Assembly (NCBI GenBank): GCA_000989515.1
Contig: LBOM01000002.1
Location: 5,453-69,452, forward strand
Source of the DNA: Candidatus Nomurabacteria bacterium GW2011_GWE1_32_28
Lineage (GTDB): Bacteria; Patescibacteriota; Minisyncoccia; Phycocordibacterales; UBA9973
Length of the DNA: 64,000 nucleotides
Direction of reading: 5' to 3'
Position 1 is the stretch's first letter, and the number at the start of each line of letters is the position of its first letter. The notes beneath the pieces were generated by a model that worked only from the letters and a program-made list of their open reading frames with translations, was not told the DNA's origin and ran no database searches. Below are positions 26,512 through 32,935 of this stretch, one piece after another. The position numbers and the translations under genes are program-made.

Positions 26512-27792
26512 TTATATCCAGTTTTTATTTATTATTTTTTCTACTAGAACCCTTGGAGACCCATAATATAATTTATTAAATGTTTCTATTGCTTCTTTTG
26601 TGGCAATGGGGAATTTTGATGTTTCTGGTAAGATACCAATACCAGAAAATGCGTTACTTGTTTTGCCATCTATCATCAACTTTATATAAAAACTAAATTT
26701 GGGTAAATTAATGAAATCTTCAATTGCTATTGGCATAAATTCCTTAGATAATATTTCAGCATCTTCTGTTCCAATCTCAAAGGAAAGAATTGTACCAACA
26801 TTTCCTAAAACTGAATCTTTTATATTCTTTGGCAATTGAGCTAAGTATTGGTTGGTTATATGCACACCTAATCCATATTTTCGTGATTCACTTAACATGC
26901 TAATGAATGTGTCTGTTGTAAAATTTTGAAACTCATCTACATATAGATAAAATGGCTTGCGATCGCTTGATTCTTTGTTGGCTCTTTTTAATATTCCAGC
27001 TTGAAGCTTTGATAGTATTATTAACCCAAGCATATGAGCGTTTATGTCACCAATTTTACCTTTTGAAAGGTTAACTAGTAATATTTTCTTATTGTCCATT
27101 AAATTTTCAAAGTCAAAACTACTTCTATGTTGTCCTATTATATTACGCATTAAAGTATTATTCATAAATTGTCCAAATTTTGACATAAAATAGTTGAGCA
27201 TTTCGCTTTTATGAAAATCTGATGTTTTAGACATTTGTTTTGTCCAGAATTCTATTACGAGGGGGTCTGTAAGATATTTTCTCTTCTCCATTTCAAATTT
27301 GTGATCAATAAAAAGTTTTGGAATTTCTATAAGACTTCCACCATCTGGTCCTGCCATGATAGTGAGTGCAGCATTTCTAAGCCAATGTTCAAATTGGGGA
27401 CCAATAATACCTGTTTTTTGTGGATCAAACAGTTTATAAAATATTTGTATACATTCATTAACTAGAAAATCTTTTTCTATTTCGGAATGTGCTTCGAGTA
27501 TATTGAGTCCAAAAGGAAAATCAATATCACTTGGATCAAACAAGACGACATCTTTTAGTCTATCTTTTGGAATATTTTTAAGTAACCAATCTATAGATTC
27601 TCCATGTGGATCAATAAAACAAACTCCTTCTTGATTTTCAATGTCTTGTAAACACATATTCTGATATATGGTTGATTTACCTACTCCTGTTTTACCGACC
27701 ATATACATATGACGCAACCTATCTTTCTCAGCATATTTGATAATAGTTGTCTTTCCGTGATATTTGTTTATTCCGATAATTATATTATTCAT
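26512..27792 (-). CDS. P-loop ATPase of the VirD4/TraD/TrwB type IV coupling-protein-like family
   Basis: Walker A MVGKTGVGKST, Walker B FYLYVDEFQNF, C-terminal TraD/TraG-like region. No TM segment at the N-terminus. Confidence 0.55.
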   Translation of the reverse strand: MNNIIIGINKYHGKTTIIKYAEKDRLRHMYMVGKTGVGKSTIYQNMCLQDIENQEGVCFIDPHGESIDWLLKNIPKDRLKDVVLFDPSDIDFPFGLNILEAHSEIEKDFLVNECIQIFYKLFDPQKTGIIGPQFEHWLRNAALTIMAGPDGGSLIEIPKLFIDHKFEMEKRKYLTDPLVIEFWTKQMSKTSDFHKSEMLNYFMSKFGQFMNNTLMRNIIGQHRSSFDFENLMDNKKILLVNLSKGKIGDINAHMLGLIILSKLQAGILKRANKESSDRKPFYLYVDEFQNFTTDTFISMLSESRKYGLGVHITNQYLAQLPKNIKDSVLGNVGTILSFEIGTEDAEILSKEFMPIAIEDFINLPKFSFYIKLMIDGKTSNAFSGIGILPETSKFPIATKEAIETFNKLYYGSPRVLVEKIINKNWI

Positions 27793-27796
27793 GAAT

Positions 27797-28117
27797 TTAT
27801 ATGTTATTGATACTTAAAGGCTTTTTGTTAAAGTAATTAATGTCTATTACGTTTTTAGTTTCATTTTCAATTCTTTTTTTATTACATATTTCTTTGTTTG
27901 TGATTTCAAGAAGAATTTTATTTTCTTTACTTATTTTATAAATAATAATATTTTTTGTTTCTTTATCTAGATAACTATCTATAGATAGAAGCATCTCATT
28001 TTCTAGTAAAAATATATTATTTACATATTCAAATGAAAGAAAATTATCCATATTGCTTTGTTCTTCTTCATTTCTAAAAGAAGTTTCTATATTTTTTAAT
28101 TTTTCGTCATTGTACAT
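27797..28117 (-). CDS. Hypothetical small acidic protein
   Basis: 106 aa ORF between two ATPase genes, same strand, short gaps. Confidence 0.4.
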   Translation of the reverse strand: MYNDEKLKNIETSFRNEEEQSNMDNFLSFEYVNNIFLLENEMLLSIDSYLDKETKNIIIYKISKENKILLEITNKEICNKKRIENETKNVIDINYFNKKPLSINNI

Positions 28118-28127
28118 AAGATTTTTA

Positions 28128-29789
28128 TTATTTATTTAATAATGTATTTACTAATAAAGATTCGCATGTTTCTTCAATGAATCTTTTTACAGGACGTGCT
28201 CCAAATCTTTCATCAAGTAATGGTTTTATGTTTTCTTCAAGCTCTTTTATATTTATATCAAAATAAACATTGTGTTTAGTTAGTCTTTTTTCTACTTTCT
28301 TTATTTCAAGTTTTGCTATATCTATAAGATTTGGTAAGGTGAGTGGATTAAAAACTAAGATGCTATCAAAACGATTAATAAATTCTAATCTGAATATTTT
28401 TGCTAATTCTGGGATAATTTTTTCTTGTATAAACTTTATGTCCATAATATCTTTTCCTTTATTAAATGCTTCTAAGATTACATTCACTCCTATATTAGAA
28501 GTTGCCATTATTATAGAATTACAAGCATCTACTGTTTCGTTTTGTCCTGATGTTAACCTTCCGTCGTCTAGTACTTGTAAAAATATATCAAAAATCTTTG
28601 GATGAGCTTTCTCTATTTCATCTAATAATATTAAACAGTGAGGTTCCTTTTGTAGAGCATTTGTGAGAGCTCCACCAGCCTCATAACCACTATATCCTGC
28701 TGGTGCTCCTATTAATCTCTGTACTGTATGATCTTGACTAAATTCTGACATATCAAATCTGATAAAGCTTTCTTGTCTACCAAACATAATTTCAGATATT
28801 AGCTTAGCTGTTTCAGTTTTTCCAACACCAGATGGTCCTAATATTAGAAATGATCCTAGCGGTTTGTTTGGATTCCTTACTCCTAATTTTGCTCTTTGTA
28901 ATGTTTGAATTATTTTATTAACTGGTTTAGTCTGGTTAATAATTTTAGAATTTAGTGTTTGATTGAGATTTTTTAATATCTCTATTTCATTTCCACTTAA
29001 TTGCATTTTAGGTATACCTATCTTGCTTGAAATAATATCGGAAATCATTTCATCTGTTAAATTCTTTTTATTTATTGATTTAGCAAGTACAATTCCTTCA
29101 TCCATTATACTTATAGCTGCTTGAGGCAGTTGTCCTAAACTGGGGAATTTTTCTACATATGTGATAATATCTTGCATTACTATTGAAGAAACAATAATTT
29201 TATGATCTTTATTAAGTTGTGCTAATTTACTTTCTAATATTTGAATTTGTTCAAGATTACTTTGCTTTTTAAATCTGACTGTTTCAAATACTTTTATGAA
29301 TGATGGGTATTCACGTTCTATAAAGTTGTATTCTTTTGGTTCCATCGTAAGAATAACTTTAACTTCAGGATTTTTAAGAACATCAGAATATAATCTAGCT
29401 ATGTTGTGTAACAGACTTGGATTTCCATATATGCTTCTACCAAAATTATCAATAAACAAAACACAGGAAGGTAATTCGTTCATTACGTTTTTAAAATAAA
29501 TTCCTTCTTCGCTACCACTATCAAATCTAAATAAATGCTCATTATCTAATTGAACAAAACTCAAGTGTTTGTATATATCTTGCTTAATCATTTTTTCAAT
29601 CCACCCATAAACTAGACTTGTTTTACCTGTACCACTTAAGCCAACTAAAATAACATTGTTATTGATACTTCGATTCGCAATTCTAGTTAATCGATTGATC
29701 TCATCGGTCCTTCCTATAAATTTTGGTAATTTACCTAAAGCAATTTCTTCTCTTAAGTCGTTATATTCTGTTTTTTTAAAAGTCTTCAT
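28128..29789 (-). CDS. Clp/Hsp100-type AAA+ ATPase lacking N-domain; D1 module degenerate, D2 module intact
   Basis: D1-like: VILVGLSGTGKTSLV Walker A, but Walker B reads VLFIDNFGR (DN not DE). D2: ILGPSGVGKTETAK, LILLDEIEKAHPKIFDIFLQVLDDGRLT, sensor region ATSNIG. Confidence 0.65.
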   Translation of the reverse strand: MKTFKKTEYNDLREEIALGKLPKFIGRTDEINRLTRIANRSINNNVILVGLSGTGKTSLVYGWIEKMIKQDIYKHLSFVQLDNEHLFRFDSGSEEGIYFKNVMNELPSCVLFIDNFGRSIYGNPSLLHNIARLYSDVLKNPEVKVILTMEPKEYNFIEREYPSFIKVFETVRFKKQSNLEQIQILESKLAQLNKDHKIIVSSIVMQDIITYVEKFPSLGQLPQAAISIMDEGIVLAKSINKKNLTDEMISDIISSKIGIPKMQLSGNEIEILKNLNQTLNSKIINQTKPVNKIIQTLQRAKLGVRNPNKPLGSFLILGPSGVGKTETAKLISEIMFGRQESFIRFDMSEFSQDHTVQRLIGAPAGYSGYEAGGALTNALQKEPHCLILLDEIEKAHPKIFDIFLQVLDDGRLTSGQNETVDACNSIIMATSNIGVNVILEAFNKGKDIMDIKFIQEKIIPELAKIFRLEFINRFDSILVFNPLTLPNLIDIAKLEIKKVEKRLTKHNVYFDINIKELEENIKPLLDERFGARPVKRFIEETCESLLVNTLLNK

Positions 29790-29794
29790 TTATT

Positions 29795-31855
29795 TTAGGC
29801 TATTATTTTTAGTGTTATCCCGTTTAAATTTCTTTGTTGATATATACTTGGAATCGATTTTACTGATTTAGTTTCTTGTTCTTCTTGATTTACACTTGGA
29901 ACCGATCTGGAATTTGTTGATTCAGTATTTTTTGATTCAGTTATATTTTGAGATATTCCGAGAATCTGTAACAAAATCTCATGACCACTGAGTGGTTTTG
30001 CTTTTAAACCTTCTTCTCTGGTTAGATTTTTTTCTTTTAGTTTTTCTAAAGATTTTGGAGCTTCATTTCTTGTAGTGTTATAAGCTATATTGCTATTAAA
30101 TTTCAATATAATAGCCTCTTTTTTGGTTTTTTCTTTTTTGAGATTTATTTCTCTTTCTCTTGTTTTTGTTTTGATTTTTTCTTCATCTTTAATTACAAAA
30201 AAGTTTTCTCTATTTTGATTAGTTTTTTTATTTTTATTATTTTCTATGTTTATATTTAAAATATTTTGAGTTTCAATTTTTATACTATCAGTTTTATAAG
30301 GAACAGTTTCTATCTTTTTTATTTCTTGTGGCTTATTAACTATTTCTTCTAGAATATTAAAACTTTGTACTTTTTGAACTAGTTCTTTTTCTGCTTTTAT
30401 ATTATTAATATTTATTTCAGTATTATTAAATGCGGTTGTATCAACATTTTCTAATAGTTCTTCTGATTTGATTATAAGATTTTCCTTTTTTTCAGTATTT
30501 AAAATCTGTTCCACTGATTCTGTATTTCGTTCTTGAATATTTTTTGTGTTAGATATTTCTATTATTTCATTTGTTTCTGTCTTGTTTTCTATCTCTGTTT
30601 TGTTAAATACAACTTCTATTGTTTCTTCTTTTAAAAATGCTGATTTTTCTGCTGTGGTTGTAGTGTAAGTAAATGGTAAATTCTCCTCTATCTCTGTAAT
30701 AGTTTCAGTTGGTGTGTTTATTTCTATTATTTTATTATTATGAATAAAAATTTGTTCTTTTTGAGTATTTTCAATATCAGGTGTTTGTACTTGCTCAAAG
30801 GATATTTCTGTTTGCTCATTTTTTTCTCTAAATAATTCTATAATCCTACTTTCAAGTGTTTTCACTTTTTCTTCTTTGTCTTCAACTGTTACAGTTAAAG
30901 GTTCGGTGTATTCTTGAATGTCTTTAAAAGTTTGTTTAGTTTCAGTTTCATCAATAATAATGTTCATTTCTTCGATAGAATCTGGTTGTGTTTCTTCTTT
31001 AAATAAGTCAATGATTTTTTCAGTTATAACTTTTTCTACATCTATTTTTGTATCTATTGTTAATTGTTCTATATGGTGAGTATTATCTATGCTGACATTT
31101 TCTTTAGAAGAAATAAGCTCTGATTGAATATTTTCCACCAACATTACTTGTTCAACATTGGCATAATGGACTTCAAAAGTACTAAAATTCTGTTCTTCAA
31201 CTTGAATAATTTCTTCAACTTGTTCAACCTCTATTTCATTAACTGTTTCATTTTCTGTTAGCAAAGATTGCTCTAGGGATGTTTCTCTTTTTGCTTCTTC
31301 TTGTTTGTTTACATCTATATTAAGTTTAAGATTTAAAGTTACTTCTTTCGCTATTGGTTCATTTGTTTTCTCTTCTTGTTTTTCTTTTATTTCTTCGACA
31401 AATACAATCAGACTTCTAATATTGCCTTCTCTGTCTGCTGTCATTGCTGCAATTGAAGTTATTTTTATTTCTTCAGTTTCTTTTATTATATAATCTGGAA
31501 ACATGTAAACTTCTTCTGGATTGGCAATAATATTATCAAGTCTATATAATTCTTCTTTTTGTTGCTCTAAGTTCATATTAGAATTTAGAATATTTTCCCT
31601 CATTTGGCCTGCGTCAAGAGTCTTGTCAATTTCAACTTTTGAATTTTCAGCAGTAGCTCCACGCTTATCCGTTATGGATTGAATTAAAGGGTCAATTTTT
31701 TCTTCATTTTCTACACATATCACAGCTTCCTCTTCTTTATTATTTTCGTGTTCTTTGTCGTTGATATGATGTTCAAAATTCTCACCAAAATCTATTTCGG
31801 TGTCTTGAATATCTATTTCATCTATTATTTCTTCACTTGTATAAAATGTATCCAT
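29795..31855 (-). CDS. Large extremely acidic low-complexity protein (E/K/T/I/N-rich, about 690-704 aa)
   Basis: Long ORF with strongly biased composition and imperfect repeats. The ORF track extends it to a TTG at 31909, but ATG at 31855 downstream of a terminator hairpin is the more likely start. Confidence 0.5.
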   Translation of the reverse strand: MDTFYTSEEIIDEIDIQDTEIDFGENFEHHINDKEHENNKEEEAVICVENEEKIDPLIQSITDKRGATAENSKVEIDKTLDAGQMRENILNSNMNLEQQKEELYRLDNIIANPEEVYMFPDYIIKETEEIKITSIAAMTADREGNIRSLIVFVEEIKEKQEEKTNEPIAKEVTLNLKLNIDVNKQEEAKRETSLEQSLLTENETVNEIEVEQVEEIIQVEEQNFSTFEVHYANVEQVMLVENIQSELISSKENVSIDNTHHIEQLTIDTKIDVEKVITEKIIDLFKEETQPDSIEEMNIIIDETETKQTFKDIQEYTEPLTVTVEDKEEKVKTLESRIIELFREKNEQTEISFEQVQTPDIENTQKEQIFIHNNKIIEINTPTETITEIEENLPFTYTTTTAEKSAFLKEETIEVVFNKTEIENKTETNEIIEISNTKNIQERNTESVEQILNTEKKENLIIKSEELLENVDTTAFNNTEININNIKAEKELVQKVQSFNILEEIVNKPQEIKKIETVPYKTDSIKIETQNILNINIENNKNKKTNQNRENFFVIKDEEKIKTKTREREINLKKEKTKKEAIILKFNSNIAYNTTRNEAPKSLEKLKEKNLTREEGLKAKPLSGHEILLQILGISQNITESKNTESTNSRSVPSVNQEEQETKSVKSIPSIYQQRNLNGITLKIIA

Positions 31856-31875
31856 AAAAACAATTAAAAACAAAA

Positions 31876-31897
31876 AAATTCTGCTTGGGCAGAATTT
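31876..31897 (-). terminator. Intrinsic terminator/attenuator hairpin between structured RNA element and acidic-protein ATG
   Basis: aaattctgc ttgg gcagaattt perfect 9 bp stem; on the minus strand it is followed by a U-run (ttttttgttttt). Confidence 0.6.
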
Positions 31898-31917
31898 GTG
31901 GTCCTTCAAAATAAATT

Positions 31918-32044
31918 AAGAAGTAATTCCTGCTCGGGAAAACAAAAATGATTGGCAGTCGGACTTGTCCTAAGACTTTTAAAGTCATAGGCTTACCGTA
32001 GCGGCACTGTGCTGGAATCTAACCAGCTTCCCCAATCACTTCTT
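31918..32044 (-). ncRNA. Unclassified structured RNA element (candidate riboswitch or cis-regulatory leader, or small RNA)
   Basis: About 47% GC island in a 30% GC background. 11 bp closing helix (gaagugauu.../...aauuacuuc), perfect with one G-U only if transcribed from the minus strand. Internal hairpins gcugg-uuagauu-ccagc and ccuaugacu-uuaaa-agucuuagg. Confidence 0.45.
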
Positions 32045-32231
32045 TATAATTATTAAATGAACTTATTTATTTTATTCTTTTATCTAAGCCTGTCAATTTT
32101 AAGTGTGGATAAAGTTTCTTGCAGATTATTTATCTTTATTTTTTTGTTTAATTATTTAAAGAATTATTCTATAAATACCCAAGAGATTTCACTAATAGGG
32201 GATTAAAACTAGTTTTTCAATCAGATAGGTT

Positions 32232-32675
32232 TTATATTTTTGCATTTCTTTTAAATCCTAATAGTTCTAAATACAACAAAGTGAGGTCTGAGATGTAGGG
32301 TAATTTTTTTATATCCTCAATAGACATAAAGAGTTGTTGTTTGTGTTTTTGAGGTTCCATATTTTTCATTTCTCCTGAAAATTTTAAAATTTCGAATAAA
32401 TGACTTATGACTTTAACATTATTATTATTTCTTTCGTAATAATAATTTTTTACTATAAGTTCTTTATAATCTTCAATTTGTAAATTAGATTCTTCAAAAA
32501 CTTCTTCTTTTAAACCAACTATAATATCTTGTCCATTCTTTACTTTTCCAATTGGAATAGTCCAAAAACCATATTTAACATGTTCTTGGACTAAAATTTC
32601 AGATGCATTATTTTTAATAACGGCAGCGACTCCATGGTGGCTTACTGTATCTTCGCTGTTGTATTTTATATTCAT
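32232..32675 (-). CDS. NUDIX-hydrolase-like protein (degenerate Nudix box)
   Basis: GKVKNGQDIIVGLKEEVFEESNL approximates the Nudix box Gx5Ex7REUxEExGU. Confidence 0.45.
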   Translation of the reverse strand: MNIKYNSEDTVSHHGVAAVIKNNASEILVQEHVKYGFWTIPIGKVKNGQDIIVGLKEEVFEESNLQIEDYKELIVKNYYYERNNNNVKVISHLFEILKFSGEMKNMEPQKHKQQLFMSIEDIKKLPYISDLTLLYLELLGFKRNAKI

Positions 32676-32686
32676 ATTAAAGTTTG

Positions 32687-32758
32687 TGACCCTACAGGGA
32701 ATCGAACCCTGATTACCGGATTGAAAACCCGATGTCCTAACCGTTAGACGATAGGGCC
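32687..32758 (-). tRNA. tRNA-Glu (anticodon TTC)
   Basis: ggccctatcgtctaacggttaggac...ttTTCaa...gggttcgattccc. Confidence 0.8.
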
Positions 32759-32847
32759 AAATAAATCAATTATAAATTATAAATTGAAATATAAAAAAGT
32801 ATAACATTTTTTGAAAAAAGTGCAAAAAATGTTAGATTTACATACAA

Positions 32848-32935
32848 GGAGACGTGGGTGAGTGGTTGAAACCACCGCTCTCGAAAAGCGGCATACTGCA
32901 AGGTATCGGAGGTTCAAATCCTCCCGTCTCCGCCA
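32848..32935 (+). tRNA. tRNA-Ser (anticodon CGA), CCA encoded
   Basis: ggagacgtgggtgagtggttgaaaccac ... ctCGAaa ... long variable arm ... ggttcaaatcc ... cgtctcc g cca. Confidence 0.85.

What the first reader, a model, noticed from the sequence alone, without database searches (positions are those of the whole stretch)
31855..32044. GC-rich structured RNA element plus terminator hairpin directly upstream of a giant acidic protein gene: riboswitch-like architecture of unknown class
Positions 31918-32044 form a roughly 47% GC island in a roughly 30% GC genome and no ORF accounts for it.
- Closing helix: an 11 bp helix (gaagtaatt/aatcacttc on the + strand) closes the element. On the minus strand it is fully paired with a single G-U wobble; on the + strand that position would be an A-C mismatch. 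The RNA is therefore most likely transcribed from the minus strand, co-directional with the gene below it.
- Internal hairpins: gcugg-uuagauu-ccagc (T-loop-like 7 nt loop) and ccuaugacu-uuaaa-agucuuagg.
- Expression platform: 20 nt further on the same strand is a perfect 9 bp hairpin (31876-31897) followed by a U-run, then the ATG at 31855 of the 700 aa acidic protein.
- This is the canonical aptamer, terminator, gene layout of a transcriptional riboswitch or attenuator.
- I could not match it from memory to a known riboswitch or housekeeping RNA.
Basis: seen in the sequence. Interest (0 to 1): 0.75.

Follow-up and report, generated by a model that had tools for sequence, protein, structure and literature searches.

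The report
Cobalamin riboswitch before unknown CPR operon
The structured RNA is not a new class but a vitamin B12 (cobalamin) riboswitch with a terminator, and its unusual feature is that in many ultra-small Candidate Phyla Radiation (CPR) bacteria it always precedes the same uncharacterised operon of an acidic protein and two ATPases.

Summary
On the minus strand there is a promoter-like site (32096-32069), a GC-enriched structured RNA (32058-31918), a 9-bp terminator (31897-31876 plus U-run) and the ATG at 31855. The "unknown class" reading is wrong. The RNA is a cobalamin riboswitch (Rfam clan CL00101): RF00174 scores 31.8 bits (gathering score, GA, 31.5) and RF01482 scores 47.5 bits (GA 50, E=1e-7). 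Syntenic homologues pass the thresholds for RF01482 (60-67 bits) or RF01689.

Across 35 homologous leaders, 95% of base-pair cells are paired and 24 of 29 pairs covary. The defining L5-L13 kissing loop is complementary in 27 of 27 sequences, with one compensatory switch.

The inferred mechanism is a B12-bound OFF switch. The kissing loop holds hairpin P13, so the terminator forms. Without B12, the P13 3' strand pairs with the terminator 5' arm.

The interesting part is the regulon. All 37 testable loci across Paceibacteria place a cobalamin aptamer before the same operon: a hypervariable acidic protein ending in -AA, a ClpA/B-like unfoldase, a small ORF and a HerA/VirD4-like ATPase. None has a known B12 role.

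The parts
32069..32096 (-). Sigma-70-like promoter: -35 TTGACA (32096-32091), 16-nt spacer, -10 TAAAAT (32074-32069). Predicted transcription start near 32062.
   Evidence: 11 of 12 matches. The -35 TTGACA is conserved in L001, L003 and L004. This is a consensus match only; transcription was not shown.
31918..32058 (-). Cobalamin riboswitch aptamer plus P13, as delimited by Rfam RF01482 (full model, positions 1-149).
   Evidence: RF01482 47.5 bits, E=1.2e-7. RF00174 31.8 bits (gathering score 31.5) at 31933-32080; own model R1, 139 bits.
32032..32042 (-). P1 5' strand, GAAGUGAUUGG.
   Evidence: all 11 P1 pairs show changes on both sides across 35 leaders. Duplex -11.5 kcal/mol.
31945..31955 (-). 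P1 3' strand, CCAAUCAUUUU.
32011..32027 (-).
   Evidence: RNAalifold on an unguided MAFFT alignment finds it, with CG/AU/GC and UA/CG/GC/AU variants. 97.7% of cells paired.
32000..32008 (-). P5 stem (A-U, G-C) with 5-nt loop L5, UGCCG (32006-32002). L5 is the kissing-loop partner.
   Evidence: the P5 pair switches U-A/A-U (16 and 11 sequences). L5 is complementary to L13 in 27 of 27. The reported L5 consensus is UCCCG (PMC10327014).
31960..31998 (-). P6: outer stem CGG/CCG, with the variable hairpin CCUAUGACU-UUAAA-AGUCUUAGG.
   Evidence: outer middle pair is GC in 24, UA in 9 and CG in 2 sequences. All inner pairs covary. Length is very variable (long in L003 and L041).
31954..31966 (-). B12-box-like J6/3 segment, AAGUCCGACUGCC.
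   Evidence: AGUC(C/A)G is almost invariant in 35 leaders. It aligns to the conserved AAGUCAGG of RF01482.
31927..31940 (-). P13 regulatory hairpin, UUCC-CGAGCA-GGAA. The L13 loop CGAGCA is at 31936-31931.
   Evidence: CC(C/U)GAG(C/U)A..GG is near-invariant. P13 pairs covary. Kissing loop UGCCG with CG(A)GCA is complementary in 27 of 27, with G-C switching to A-U in L014, L016 and L017. The hairpin alone is -2.3 kcal/mol.
31904..31923 (-). Spacer hairpin, CUUC-(12 nt)-GAAG, between P13 and the terminator.
   Evidence: Present in MFE folds. Structurally replaced by other hairpins in L007, L008, L011 and L032. Role inferred only.
31866..31897 (-). Intrinsic terminator: 9-bp stem AAAUUCUGC-CCAA-GCAGAAUUU (31897-31876) plus U-run UUUUGUUUUU (31875-31866). 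The 5' arm AAUUCUGC can pair with the P13 3' strand GCAG(G)AAUU as an antiterminator.
   Evidence: A terminator follows P13 in almost all homologous leaders. P13 paired with the terminator 5' arm gives -7.8 kcal/mol here (z=-1.83) and a median of -9.7 across 30 leaders; 19 of 30 beat 95% of shuffles. The co-transcriptional MFE is the antiterminator.
29795..31855 (-). Regulated gene 1: a 686-aa strongly acidic protein (D+E 21%) with no known domain, ending in ...NGITLKIIA.
   Evidence: No Pfam, NCBIfam, PADLOC or PHROG hit. Only 4 detectable homologues. Positional equivalents in 33 loci share only termini.
28128..29789 (-). Regulated gene 2: a 553-aa ClpA/ClpB-like double AAA+ unfoldase lacking the N-domain, M-domain and ClpP loop.
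   Evidence: D1 Walker B is DN here and is non-DE in 34 of 43 loci scored. D2 is DE in 37 of 37. No xGF loop in 20 of 20.
27797..28117 (-). Regulated gene 3: a 106-aa protein with no family match.
   Evidence: A positionally conserved small ORF.
26512..27792 (-). Regulated gene 4: a 426-aa soluble HerA/FtsK/VirD4-type ATPase, very highly conserved in Paceibacteria.
   Evidence: about 70% identity, 7989 hits.. Fold matches DndH-C, Cagbeta, HerA, TrwB and VirB4 at TM about 0.5 on a pLDDT-66 model. No TM-like segment.

Best explanation
The element is a cobalamin (vitamin B12/corrinoid) riboswitch of the short AdoCbl / AdoCbl-II type. It is transcribed from the minus strand, probably from a promoter at 32096-32069. 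Its aptamer (P1, P4, P5/L5, P6, B12 box; 32042-31945) is followed by regulatory hairpin P13 (31940-31927), a spacer hairpin and an intrinsic terminator (31897-31866). These lie just upstream of a four-gene operon: acidic protein, ClpA/B-like unfoldase, 106-aa protein, HerA/VirD4-like ATPase.

Inferred mechanism: when a corrinoid is bound, loop L5 (UGCCG) kisses loop L13 (CG(A)GCA). This holds the intrinsically weak P13 closed, leaves the terminator 5' arm free, and the terminator forms, so the operon is OFF. Without corrinoid, P13 opens and its 3' strand GCAG(G)AAUU pairs with AAUUCUGC of the terminator 5' arm. That antiterminator delays terminator folding, so the operon is read through (ON).

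Shown here: family identity, conserved and covarying structure, kissing-loop complementarity, terminator presence, and P13-terminator complementarity.

Inferred only: ligand binding, direction of regulation, and the kinetic competition.
For: Family identity:
- RF00174 31.8 bits (gathering score 31.5) on the window.
- RF01482 47.5 bits, E=1.2e-7, full-length model.
- All five loci encoding detectable homologues of the acidic protein carry a clan CL00101 hit.
- Syntenic leaders in other genomes exceed curated thresholds: RF01482 60.5-66.7 bits (L014, L015, L017) and RF01689 36.6-42 bits (L020, L028, L029, L030, L038).

Structure:
- Unguided RNAalifold recovers P4, P6 and P13, with 9 of 13 pairs compensatory.
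- On 35 leaders, 95.0% of cells are paired against 71.0% in shuffles. 24 of 29 pairs change on both sides. Covariation score is 0.564, against 0.159 in shuffles (0 of 500 reach it) and at most 0.116 for slid partners.

Kissing loop (not part of the model used to align):
- 27 of 27 complementary over 5 bp.
- The central G-C switches to A-U in three sequences.
- AdoCbl-II-type leaders have a re-made CGCG/CGCG complement, and L084 has AUGC/GCAU.

Specificity:
- The 35 cmsearch hits in 1.2 Mb all lie on the operon strand in the leader. There are none in the 36 loci lacking the ClpB-like gene.

Expression platform:
- A terminator follows P13 in almost all leaders.
- P13 alone is -1.4 to -4.5 kcal/mol. 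P13 against the terminator 5' arm has a median of -9.7 kcal/mol, and 19 of 30 beat 95% of shuffles.
- In the window, the fold with only the terminator 5' arm transcribed is the antiterminator.
- The same logic was proven by mutagenesis for the P. megaterium metE corrinoid riboswitch (PMC10327014).

Same aptamer core in canonical B12 contexts:
- The same core pattern, often with the same CCCGAGCAGG P13, precedes DUF4430, PduO and DUF6580 genes in 31 of 101 metagenome loci.
- Rfam scores there are 41-58 bits.
Against: - The window copy is only marginally above one curated threshold (RF00174) and below another (RF01482, 47.5 against 50).
- None of the four regulated proteins belongs to a known B12 family, so the gene context gives no independent support in the window itself.
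- Kissing-loop covariation rests on one pair in three related sequences, possibly a single evolutionary event.
- In the window, the antiterminator is weak (-4.9 kcal/mol as an explicit structure, against -14.2 for the P13 + spacer + terminator state). Its complementarity is not individually significant (z=-1.83; 7% of shuffles are as good). Regulation must therefore be kinetic, and that is untested.
- The structure-aware alignment was fitted to my model, which inflates pair counts. This is partly offset by the unguided result.
- No expression or ligand-binding data exist.
Confidence: 0.88

Rival explanations
1. A cobalamin-derived aptamer that has changed ligand. It keeps the fold but now senses something other than a corrinoid, which would explain why it controls genes with no known B12 role.
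For: - No B12-related family among the four operon proteins.
- L5 is UGCCG rather than the consensus UCCCG.
- The window scores at or below curated thresholds.
Against: - Two different cobalamin aptamer subtypes (RF01482-like and RF01689-like) occupy the same position before the same operon in different lineages. This is expected if the shared property is the ligand.
- The identical core pattern, usually with the identical P13, precedes DUF4430, PduO and DUF6580 genes elsewhere.
- DUF4430 genes abut the operon in L031 and L023.
- The B12 box and junction nucleotides are conserved.
Confidence: 0.05
2. A riboswitch of a new, undescribed class.
For: The window hit is close to the Rfam thresholds.
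Against: - Full-length matches to three curated models of one clan.
- All canonical helices, the B12 box and the L5-L13 kissing loop are present.
Confidence: 0.01
3. A cobalamin riboswitch that activates rather than represses: B12 binding prevents termination and turns the operon ON.
For: - One activating corrinoid riboswitch is known (A. halodurans cobT; PMC10327014).
- The function of the operon is unknown, so the sign cannot be guessed from physiology.
Against: - In the activating type, P13 and the terminator share bases and are mutually exclusive.
- Here P13 (31940-31927) and the terminator (31897-31876) are separate and form together in the MFE fold.
- It is the open P13 strand that competes with the terminator, which is the repressing architecture.
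Confidence: 0.04
4. A decaying, non-functional relic of a riboswitch, or a chance GC-rich structure next to an ordinary terminator.
For: Borderline scores in the window.
Against: - The core is invariant between loci whose downstream proteins are only 36% identical (L003).
- 37 of 37 testable loci keep an aptamer.
- Strong compensatory variation indicates selection on the structure.
Confidence: 0.02

Closest known systems
Rfam RF01482 (AdoCbl riboswitch) and RF01689 (AdoCbl-II), the short cobalamin aptamers of clan CL00101
   Same: - P1, P4, P5/L5, a short P6, the AAGUC(C/A)G box and a 3' P13 hairpin.
- Full-length alignment to RF01482.
- Syntenic homologues score above the gathering thresholds of RF01482 or RF01689.
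   Different: - The window copy scores 47.5 bits, just under RF01482's threshold of 50.
- L5 is UGCCG, not UCCCG.
- L13 is an almost invariant CGAGCA.
- The downstream genes are not known B12 genes.
Priestia megaterium metE transcriptional corrinoid riboswitch (PMC10327014)
   Same: Repressing architecture. The L5-L13 kissing loop stabilises a weak P13. A separate downstream terminator follows. [quoted passage not shown]
   Different: - That mechanism was proven there by mutagenesis; here it is only computed.
- The kissing loop there is 5 contiguous pairs (UCCCG/CGGGA). Here it is 5 pairs with a bulged A.
- The regulated gene there is a classical B12-independent isozyme.
env8 hydroxocobalamin riboswitch (class IIa), as described in PMC10327014
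   Same: [quoted passage not shown]
   Different: - env8 is translational (RBS sequestration); this one has an intrinsic terminator.
- The ligand preference of the window's RNA is unknown.
Rfam RF00174 (classical cobalamin riboswitch, e.g. E. coli btuB)
   Same: The same core junction and B12 box. The window passes its gathering score (31.8 against 31.5). L001, L002 and L003 score 37.8-38.5.
   Different: It lacks the long P6 peripheral extension of the classical type. The alignment to the 189-position model has large deletions.

Membership tests
Cobalamin riboswitch (Rfam clan CL00101) | Match to a curated covariance model at or above its gathering score | tested here: met
   RF00174 scores 31.8 bits against a gathering score of 31.5 on the window, which is marginal. 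RF01482 scores 47.5 against 50, so that model's threshold is not met in the window. Homologous leaders at the same position do meet thresholds: RF00174 37.8-38.5, RF01482 60.5-66.7 and RF01689 36.6-42.
Cobalamin riboswitch (Rfam clan CL00101) | Conserved helices P1, P4, P5 and P6 around a multi-helix junction, supported by covariation | tested here: met
   95.0% of cells paired. 24 of 29 pairs change on both sides. Score 0.564 against 0.159 in shuffles (0 of 500 reach it) and at most 0.116 for slid partners. An unguided RNAalifold run agrees for P4, P6 and P13.
Cobalamin riboswitch (Rfam clan CL00101) | B12 box / J6-3 conserved sequence (AGYCMG...GCC) | tested here: met
   AAGUCCGACUGCC at 31966-31954. 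AGUC(C/A)G is near-invariant in 35 leaders.
Cobalamin riboswitch (Rfam clan CL00101) | L5-L13 kissing loop linking the aptamer to the expression platform | tested here: met
   UGCCG (32006-32002) pairs with CG(A)GCA (31936-31931). 27 of 27 sequences are complementary. One pair switches G-C to A-U in three sequences. Slid registers reach only 14-66% paired. Covariation is limited to one pair.
Cobalamin riboswitch (Rfam clan CL00101) | Binds a corrinoid (AdoCbl, MeCbl, HyCbl and similar) | not testable with these tools
   Needs in-line probing, ITC or a reporter assay.
Cobalamin riboswitch (Rfam clan CL00101) | Controls genes of B12 transport, synthesis, salvage or B12-independent isozymes | tested here: inconclusive
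   The window's four genes have no B12-related family. Indirect links exist. DUF4430 genes follow the operon directly in L031 and precede the aptamer in L023. A long form of the ATPase is co-operonic with DUF4430, DUF6580 and PduO in L197 and follows PduO in L109. However, 36 genomic loci with the long ATPase have no B12 genes or aptamer.
Repressing transcriptional corrinoid riboswitch (P. megaterium metE type) | [quoted passage not shown] | tested here: met
   P13 is at 31940-31927 and the terminator at 31897-31876. GCAG(G)AAUU can pair with AAUUCUGC. The co-transcriptional MFE is the antiterminator. Across 30 leaders the median duplex is -9.7 kcal/mol and 19 of 30 beat 95% of shuffles. For the window alone z=-1.83, which is not individually significant.
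Repressing transcriptional corrinoid riboswitch (P. megaterium metE type) | Corrinoid-dependent increase in termination | not testable with these tools
   Needs in vitro transcription or a reporter assay.
Classical long cobalamin riboswitch (class I, btuB-like) | Large peripheral extension of P6 (additional helices) | tested here: not met
   P6 carries a single 27-nt hairpin. The whole aptamer including P13 is 141 nt. The alignment to RF00174 deletes 44 model positions (same architecture).

The most novel reading that the evidence does not exclude
The B12-repressed operon is a previously unrecognised part of corrinoid acquisition, or of the response to B12 starvation, in CPR/Paceibacteria. These organisms cannot make B12 and depend on hosts. 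The operon encodes a fast-evolving acidic, probably disordered protein with an ssrA-like -AA C-terminus, a ClpP-independent ClpA/B-like unfoldase, a small protein, and a near-universally conserved soluble HerA/VirD4-like ATPase. On this reading it would be a new kind of ATP-driven machine tied to vitamin B12, and the riboswitch would be the handle for finding its function.
Probability: 0.3. Interest if true: 0.8.

Novelty: new member of a known kind. Interest (0 to 1): 0.5.

Why it matters
The RNA itself is an ordinary member of one of the most widespread riboswitch classes, so the 'new class' claim should be dropped.

What matters is what it regulates. Riboswitch-guided gene discovery has repeatedly revealed new B12 transporters and binders. 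Here a cobalamin aptamer is found at every testable copy (37 of 37) of one uncharacterised operon, across Nomura-, Kaiser-, Doudnabacteria and relatives, and two different aptamer subtypes are used.

The operon's ATPase is among the most conserved proteins of these reduced genomes (about 70% identity across lineages), yet its function is unknown. If expression is B12-repressed, this gives a concrete, testable hypothesis linking a core CPR machine to cofactor scavenging or to host dependence. It also offers a natural ligand-controlled expression element for organisms where genetic tools are being sought (PMC11665869).

Tried and rejected
- tRNA or tmRNA: ARAGORN finds none in the element.
- Other Rfam families: permissive hits in 31700-32300 (STnc370, FtrA, snoZ221 and others) have E=5-9 and merely match the terminator or AT-rich sequence.
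An apparent co-variation in L008 is explained by the spacer hairpin instead.
- Leader-peptide attenuation through the TTG-initiated 704-aa ORF (31909): the conserved start is the ATG at 31855.
- Mobile element, phage or defence-island origin: the window's neighbours are core genes (FtsA/Z, GreA, AspRS, TrxB, Def, Fur, ZnuABC). PADLOC gives only generic AAA+/HerA similarity. Viral contig scans gave one distant ATPase relative and no aptamer.
- Sequence search of the ATPase profile against PDB: nothing found. The fold search gave only superfamily-level matches on a mediocre model.
- Pfam on 33 acidic proteins: no family in any.
- B12-dependent enzymes or transporters in the 64-kb window: none seen.
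- Literature: nothing on cobalamin riboswitches in CPR, Patescibacteria or Parcubacteria, and nothing linking them to ClpB-like genes, in the held library.
- A universal link between the ATPase family and B12: rejected. The 36 loci with the long, membrane-anchored form have neither an aptamer nor B12 genes.
Full report
**1. Observation**

The region was read on both strands. On the minus strand, in order:
- A sigma-70-like promoter, TTGACA-16-TAAAAT, at 32096-32069.
- A structured segment.
- The only terminator-like site in 31500-32800: a perfect 9-bp stem at 31897-31876 followed by UUUUGUUUUU.
- The ATG at 31855.

The leader folds to -55.8 kcal/mol (z=-3.07; 0 of 200 shuffles are as stable). 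GC of 31918-32044 is 44.1% against 29.9% for the window, which puts it in the top 1% of 127-nt windows.

**2. Identity**

*Rfam on the window.* At curated thresholds, Rfam reports Cobalamin RF00174 on the minus strand at 31933-32080, with 31.8 bits against a gathering score of 31.5. A focused scan gives a full-length match to AdoCbl RF01482 at 31918-32058, with 47.5 bits and E=1.2e-7, just below its gathering score of 50. ARAGORN finds no tRNA or tmRNA there.

*Homologous loci.* Because the scores are borderline, I looked for homologues. The downstream 686-aa acidic protein is 100% identical to a hypothetical protein of a Candidatus Nomurabacteria genome and has only four detectable relatives. 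All of their contigs carry a clan CL00101 aptamer directly upstream, including L003, whose protein is 36% identical. The leaders align from the -35 box to the start codon.

*Wider sampling.* The fourth gene of the operon, a 426-aa ATPase, is about 70% identical across Paceibacteria and has 7989 hits. Using it, I fetched 80 loci from species-representative genomes. They fall into two architectures:
- Type A (44 loci): one acidic ORF, a ClpB-like gene of about 553 aa, a small ORF, and the ATPase of about 426 aa.
- Type B (36 loci): a membrane-anchored ATPase of about 850 aa with no ClpB-like gene.

*Aptamers in type-A loci.*
- nhmmer and a covariance model built from seven close leaders find an aptamer in the leader of the acidic gene.
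- There are 35 cmsearch hits in 1.2 Mb. All are on the operon strand, and none is in a type-B locus.
- Rfam's own models pass threshold at the same position: RF01482 at 60.5-66.7 bits in L014, L015 and L017, and RF01689 at 36.6-42 bits in L020, L028, L029, L030 and L038.
- The three apparent exceptions (L019, L031, L033) carry RF01689-type cores on inspection.

So every type-A locus with enough upstream sequence (37 of 37) has a cobalamin-clan aptamer, and two different subtypes are used.

**3. Structure**

*Nested helices.* RNAalifold on an unguided MAFFT alignment of 25 leaders recovers P4, both parts of P6 and P13. Nine of its 13 pairs are compensatory. On the model-guided alignment of 35 leaders:
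- 95.0% of cells are paired, against 71.0% in shuffles.
- 24 of 29 pairs change on both sides.
- The covariation score is 0.564, against 0.159 in shuffles (0 of 500 reach it) and at most 0.116 with slid partners.
- All 11 P1 pairs covary.

That alignment was fitted to my structure, so the numbers lean towards it. The unguided result shows the signal is not an artefact.

*Kissing loop.* The L5-L13 kissing loop is not part of the model, so it is an independent test. L5 UGCCG (32006-32002) pairs with L13 CG(A)GCA (31936-31931). It is complementary in 27 of 27 sequences. The central pair is G-C in 24 and A-U in 3 (L014, L016, L017). No slid register comes close. RF01689-type leaders carry a different complementary pair (UCGCG with CGCG), and L084 has AUGC with GCAU. 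The covariation is limited to one pair in related sequences, possibly a single event.

It occurs only in the window, L001, L004 and L005. It is absent from other close relatives that keep the same or nearly the same 5' strand, whereas P1 is kept everywhere.

**4. Mechanism**

- P13 alone is weak, at -1.4 to -4.5 kcal/mol.
- In 30 leaders, its sequence can pair with the 5' arm and loop of its own terminator at a median of -9.7 kcal/mol. In 19 of 30 this is stronger than at least 95% of shuffled P13 sequences.
- A terminator follows P13 in nearly all leaders.
- In the window, when only the terminator's 5' arm and loop exist, the MFE fold is the antiterminator (GCAG(G)AAUU with AAUUCUGC).
- Once the 3' arm is present, the P13 + spacer + terminator state is much more stable (-14.2 against -4.9 kcal/mol). 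Any read-through must therefore be kinetic.

This is the architecture proven by mutagenesis for the repressing P. megaterium metE corrinoid riboswitch. [quoted passage not shown] The activating type described in the same paper needs P13 and the terminator to overlap. They do not overlap here. I therefore infer a corrinoid-dependent OFF switch. Ligand binding and the sign of regulation are not shown.

**5. What it regulates**

- *Gene 1:* a 686-aa acidic protein with no match in Pfam, NCBIfam, PADLOC or PHROGs.
  - Its positional equivalents in 33 loci are 237-910 aa with D+E of 13-28%. Mean column identity is 15%, and none has a Pfam domain.
  - They share only a short N-terminal acidic/aromatic pattern and a C-terminal tail...NGI(T/I)(L/M)(K/R)xAA.
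- *Gene 2:* a ClpA/ClpB-like double AAA+ protein without N- or M-domain.
  - The D1 Walker B glutamate is replaced in most loci.
  - D2 is intact.
  - There is no ClpP-docking tripeptide.
- *Gene 3:* a 106-aa protein with no family match.
- *Gene 4:* a soluble ATPase of the HerA/FtsK/VirD4 superfamily.

None of the four has a TM-like segment. The window's neighbours are core chromosomal genes, and no B12 enzyme or transporter lies within 64 kb.

**6. Is the aptamer type a genuine B12 sensor?**

I scanned metagenomes with a pattern taken from the aptamer core only. Findings:
- The same core, frequently with the same CCCGAGCAGG P13, precedes many other gene sets.
- 31 of the 101 loci with enough downstream sequence encode DUF4430, PduO adenosyltransferase or DUF6580 proteins within 3.5 kb. 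DUF4430 is the C-terminal domain of transcobalamin-type binders (PMC4350170).
- Rfam scores these aptamers at 41-58 bits.

So P13's near-invariance is a subclass trait, and the subclass has a canonical corrinoid regulon.

**7. Links between the operon and B12**

- In L031, two DUF4430 genes start 22 nt after the ATPase stop, on the same strand.
- In L023, a DUF4430 gene lies just upstream of the aptamer.
- In L197, the long-form ATPase is the last gene of a tightly packed series: aptamer, DUF4430, DUF6580, PduO, small ORF, ATPase.
- In L109, the long-form ATPase follows PduO.

Against a general link: the 36 genomic type-B loci have neither an aptamer nor B12 genes.

The operon's function therefore remains unknown. 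A role in corrinoid acquisition or in the response to B12 scarcity is a hypothesis, to which I give about 0.3.

**8. Literature**

In the held library I found no paper describing cobalamin riboswitches in CPR, Patescibacteria or Parcubacteria, nor one linking them to Clp-like genes. This is absence from a partial library, not proof of novelty.

**9. Verdict**

The finding is a real riboswitch, correctly oriented and with the correct layout, but of a known class. Its novelty is 'new member of a known kind'. The interest lies in the strictly conserved, non-canonical regulon in CPR bacteria.

Noticed in passing
window 29795-29830 (C-terminus of the acidic protein); equivalents in L001-L048: The hypervariable acidic proteins share an ssrA-like C-terminal tail...NGI(T/I)(L/M)(K/R)xAA, and an upstream P..G.E.L..LG motif. 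Encoded beside a Clp-type unfoldase gene, this suggests a recognition tag, so the acidic protein may be that unfoldase's substrate or adaptor.
   Followed up: partly
window 28128-29789 (-): The ClpA/B-like protein lacks the N-domain, M-domain and ClpP-docking xGF loop. Its D1 Walker B glutamate is replaced (DN here; DN, DD, DS or DG in 34 of 43 loci scored), while D2 is DE in 37 of 37. D1 probably binds ATP without hydrolysing it.
   Followed up: partly
L049-L086 (e.g. L068 6789-9320 and 11359-14475): Type-B loci (Berkelbacteria and others) encode a form of the ATPase of about 850 aa with 1-2 N-terminal TM helices. They also encode a second paralogue of about 1000-1100 aa roughly 2 kb downstream. 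This may be a type IV secretion-like or competence-like cluster. No aptamer is present.
   Followed up: no
L109 1052-2458, L091 86-1198, L107, L112, L198 (coordinates relative to the aptamer match): Proteins of about 300-550 aa with no Pfam match and a C-terminal CxxC...CxxC zinc-ribbon-like end are the first gene after this aptamer type in 13 metagenome loci. They are an uncharacterised member of the corrinoid regulon.
   Followed up: no
L118 689-2479 and 18 related loci; L031 9813-11432: A protein of about 530-820 aa combining DUF4430 with a squalene-hopene-cyclase-like (prenyltransferase / alpha-alpha toroid) region often follows a small DUF4430 gene behind the aptamer. It is possibly a surface corrinoid binder of CPR bacteria.
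   Followed up: partly
L011 ~95-135; L035, L036, L040 (L4 region); L003 and L041 (P6): Some aptamers carry an extra hairpin inserted into loop L4 (for example L011, GGUGACCUGCCUCGCGUUGACGAGUCAAGGCGGGGAUUCCGG). Others have a very long P6 extension. The core is otherwise unchanged.
   Followed up: no
L001 917-5632: In one relative, the operon lies just downstream of an N6/N4 methyltransferase, a serine recombinase and a Shedu-like SduA_C gene, and a Peptidase_S24 (LexA-like) gene follows it. In the window the neighbours are core genes instead.
   Followed up: no
L001 13544-13588 and L002 8124-8168 (-): A sub-threshold Rfam 'MIR8008' hit (32.9 bits; gathering score 66) is a long perfect hairpin followed by a U-run. 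It is most likely an intrinsic terminator, not a microRNA.
   Followed up: no
window 32232-32935: Upstream of the riboswitch promoter lie a NUDIX hydrolase gene (32232-32675, -), tRNA-Glu(UUC) (32686-32758, -) and a divergent tRNA-Ser(CGA) (32848-32935, +), then a Pif1/RecD2-like helicase gene. There is no sign that they belong to the regulated unit.
   Followed up: no
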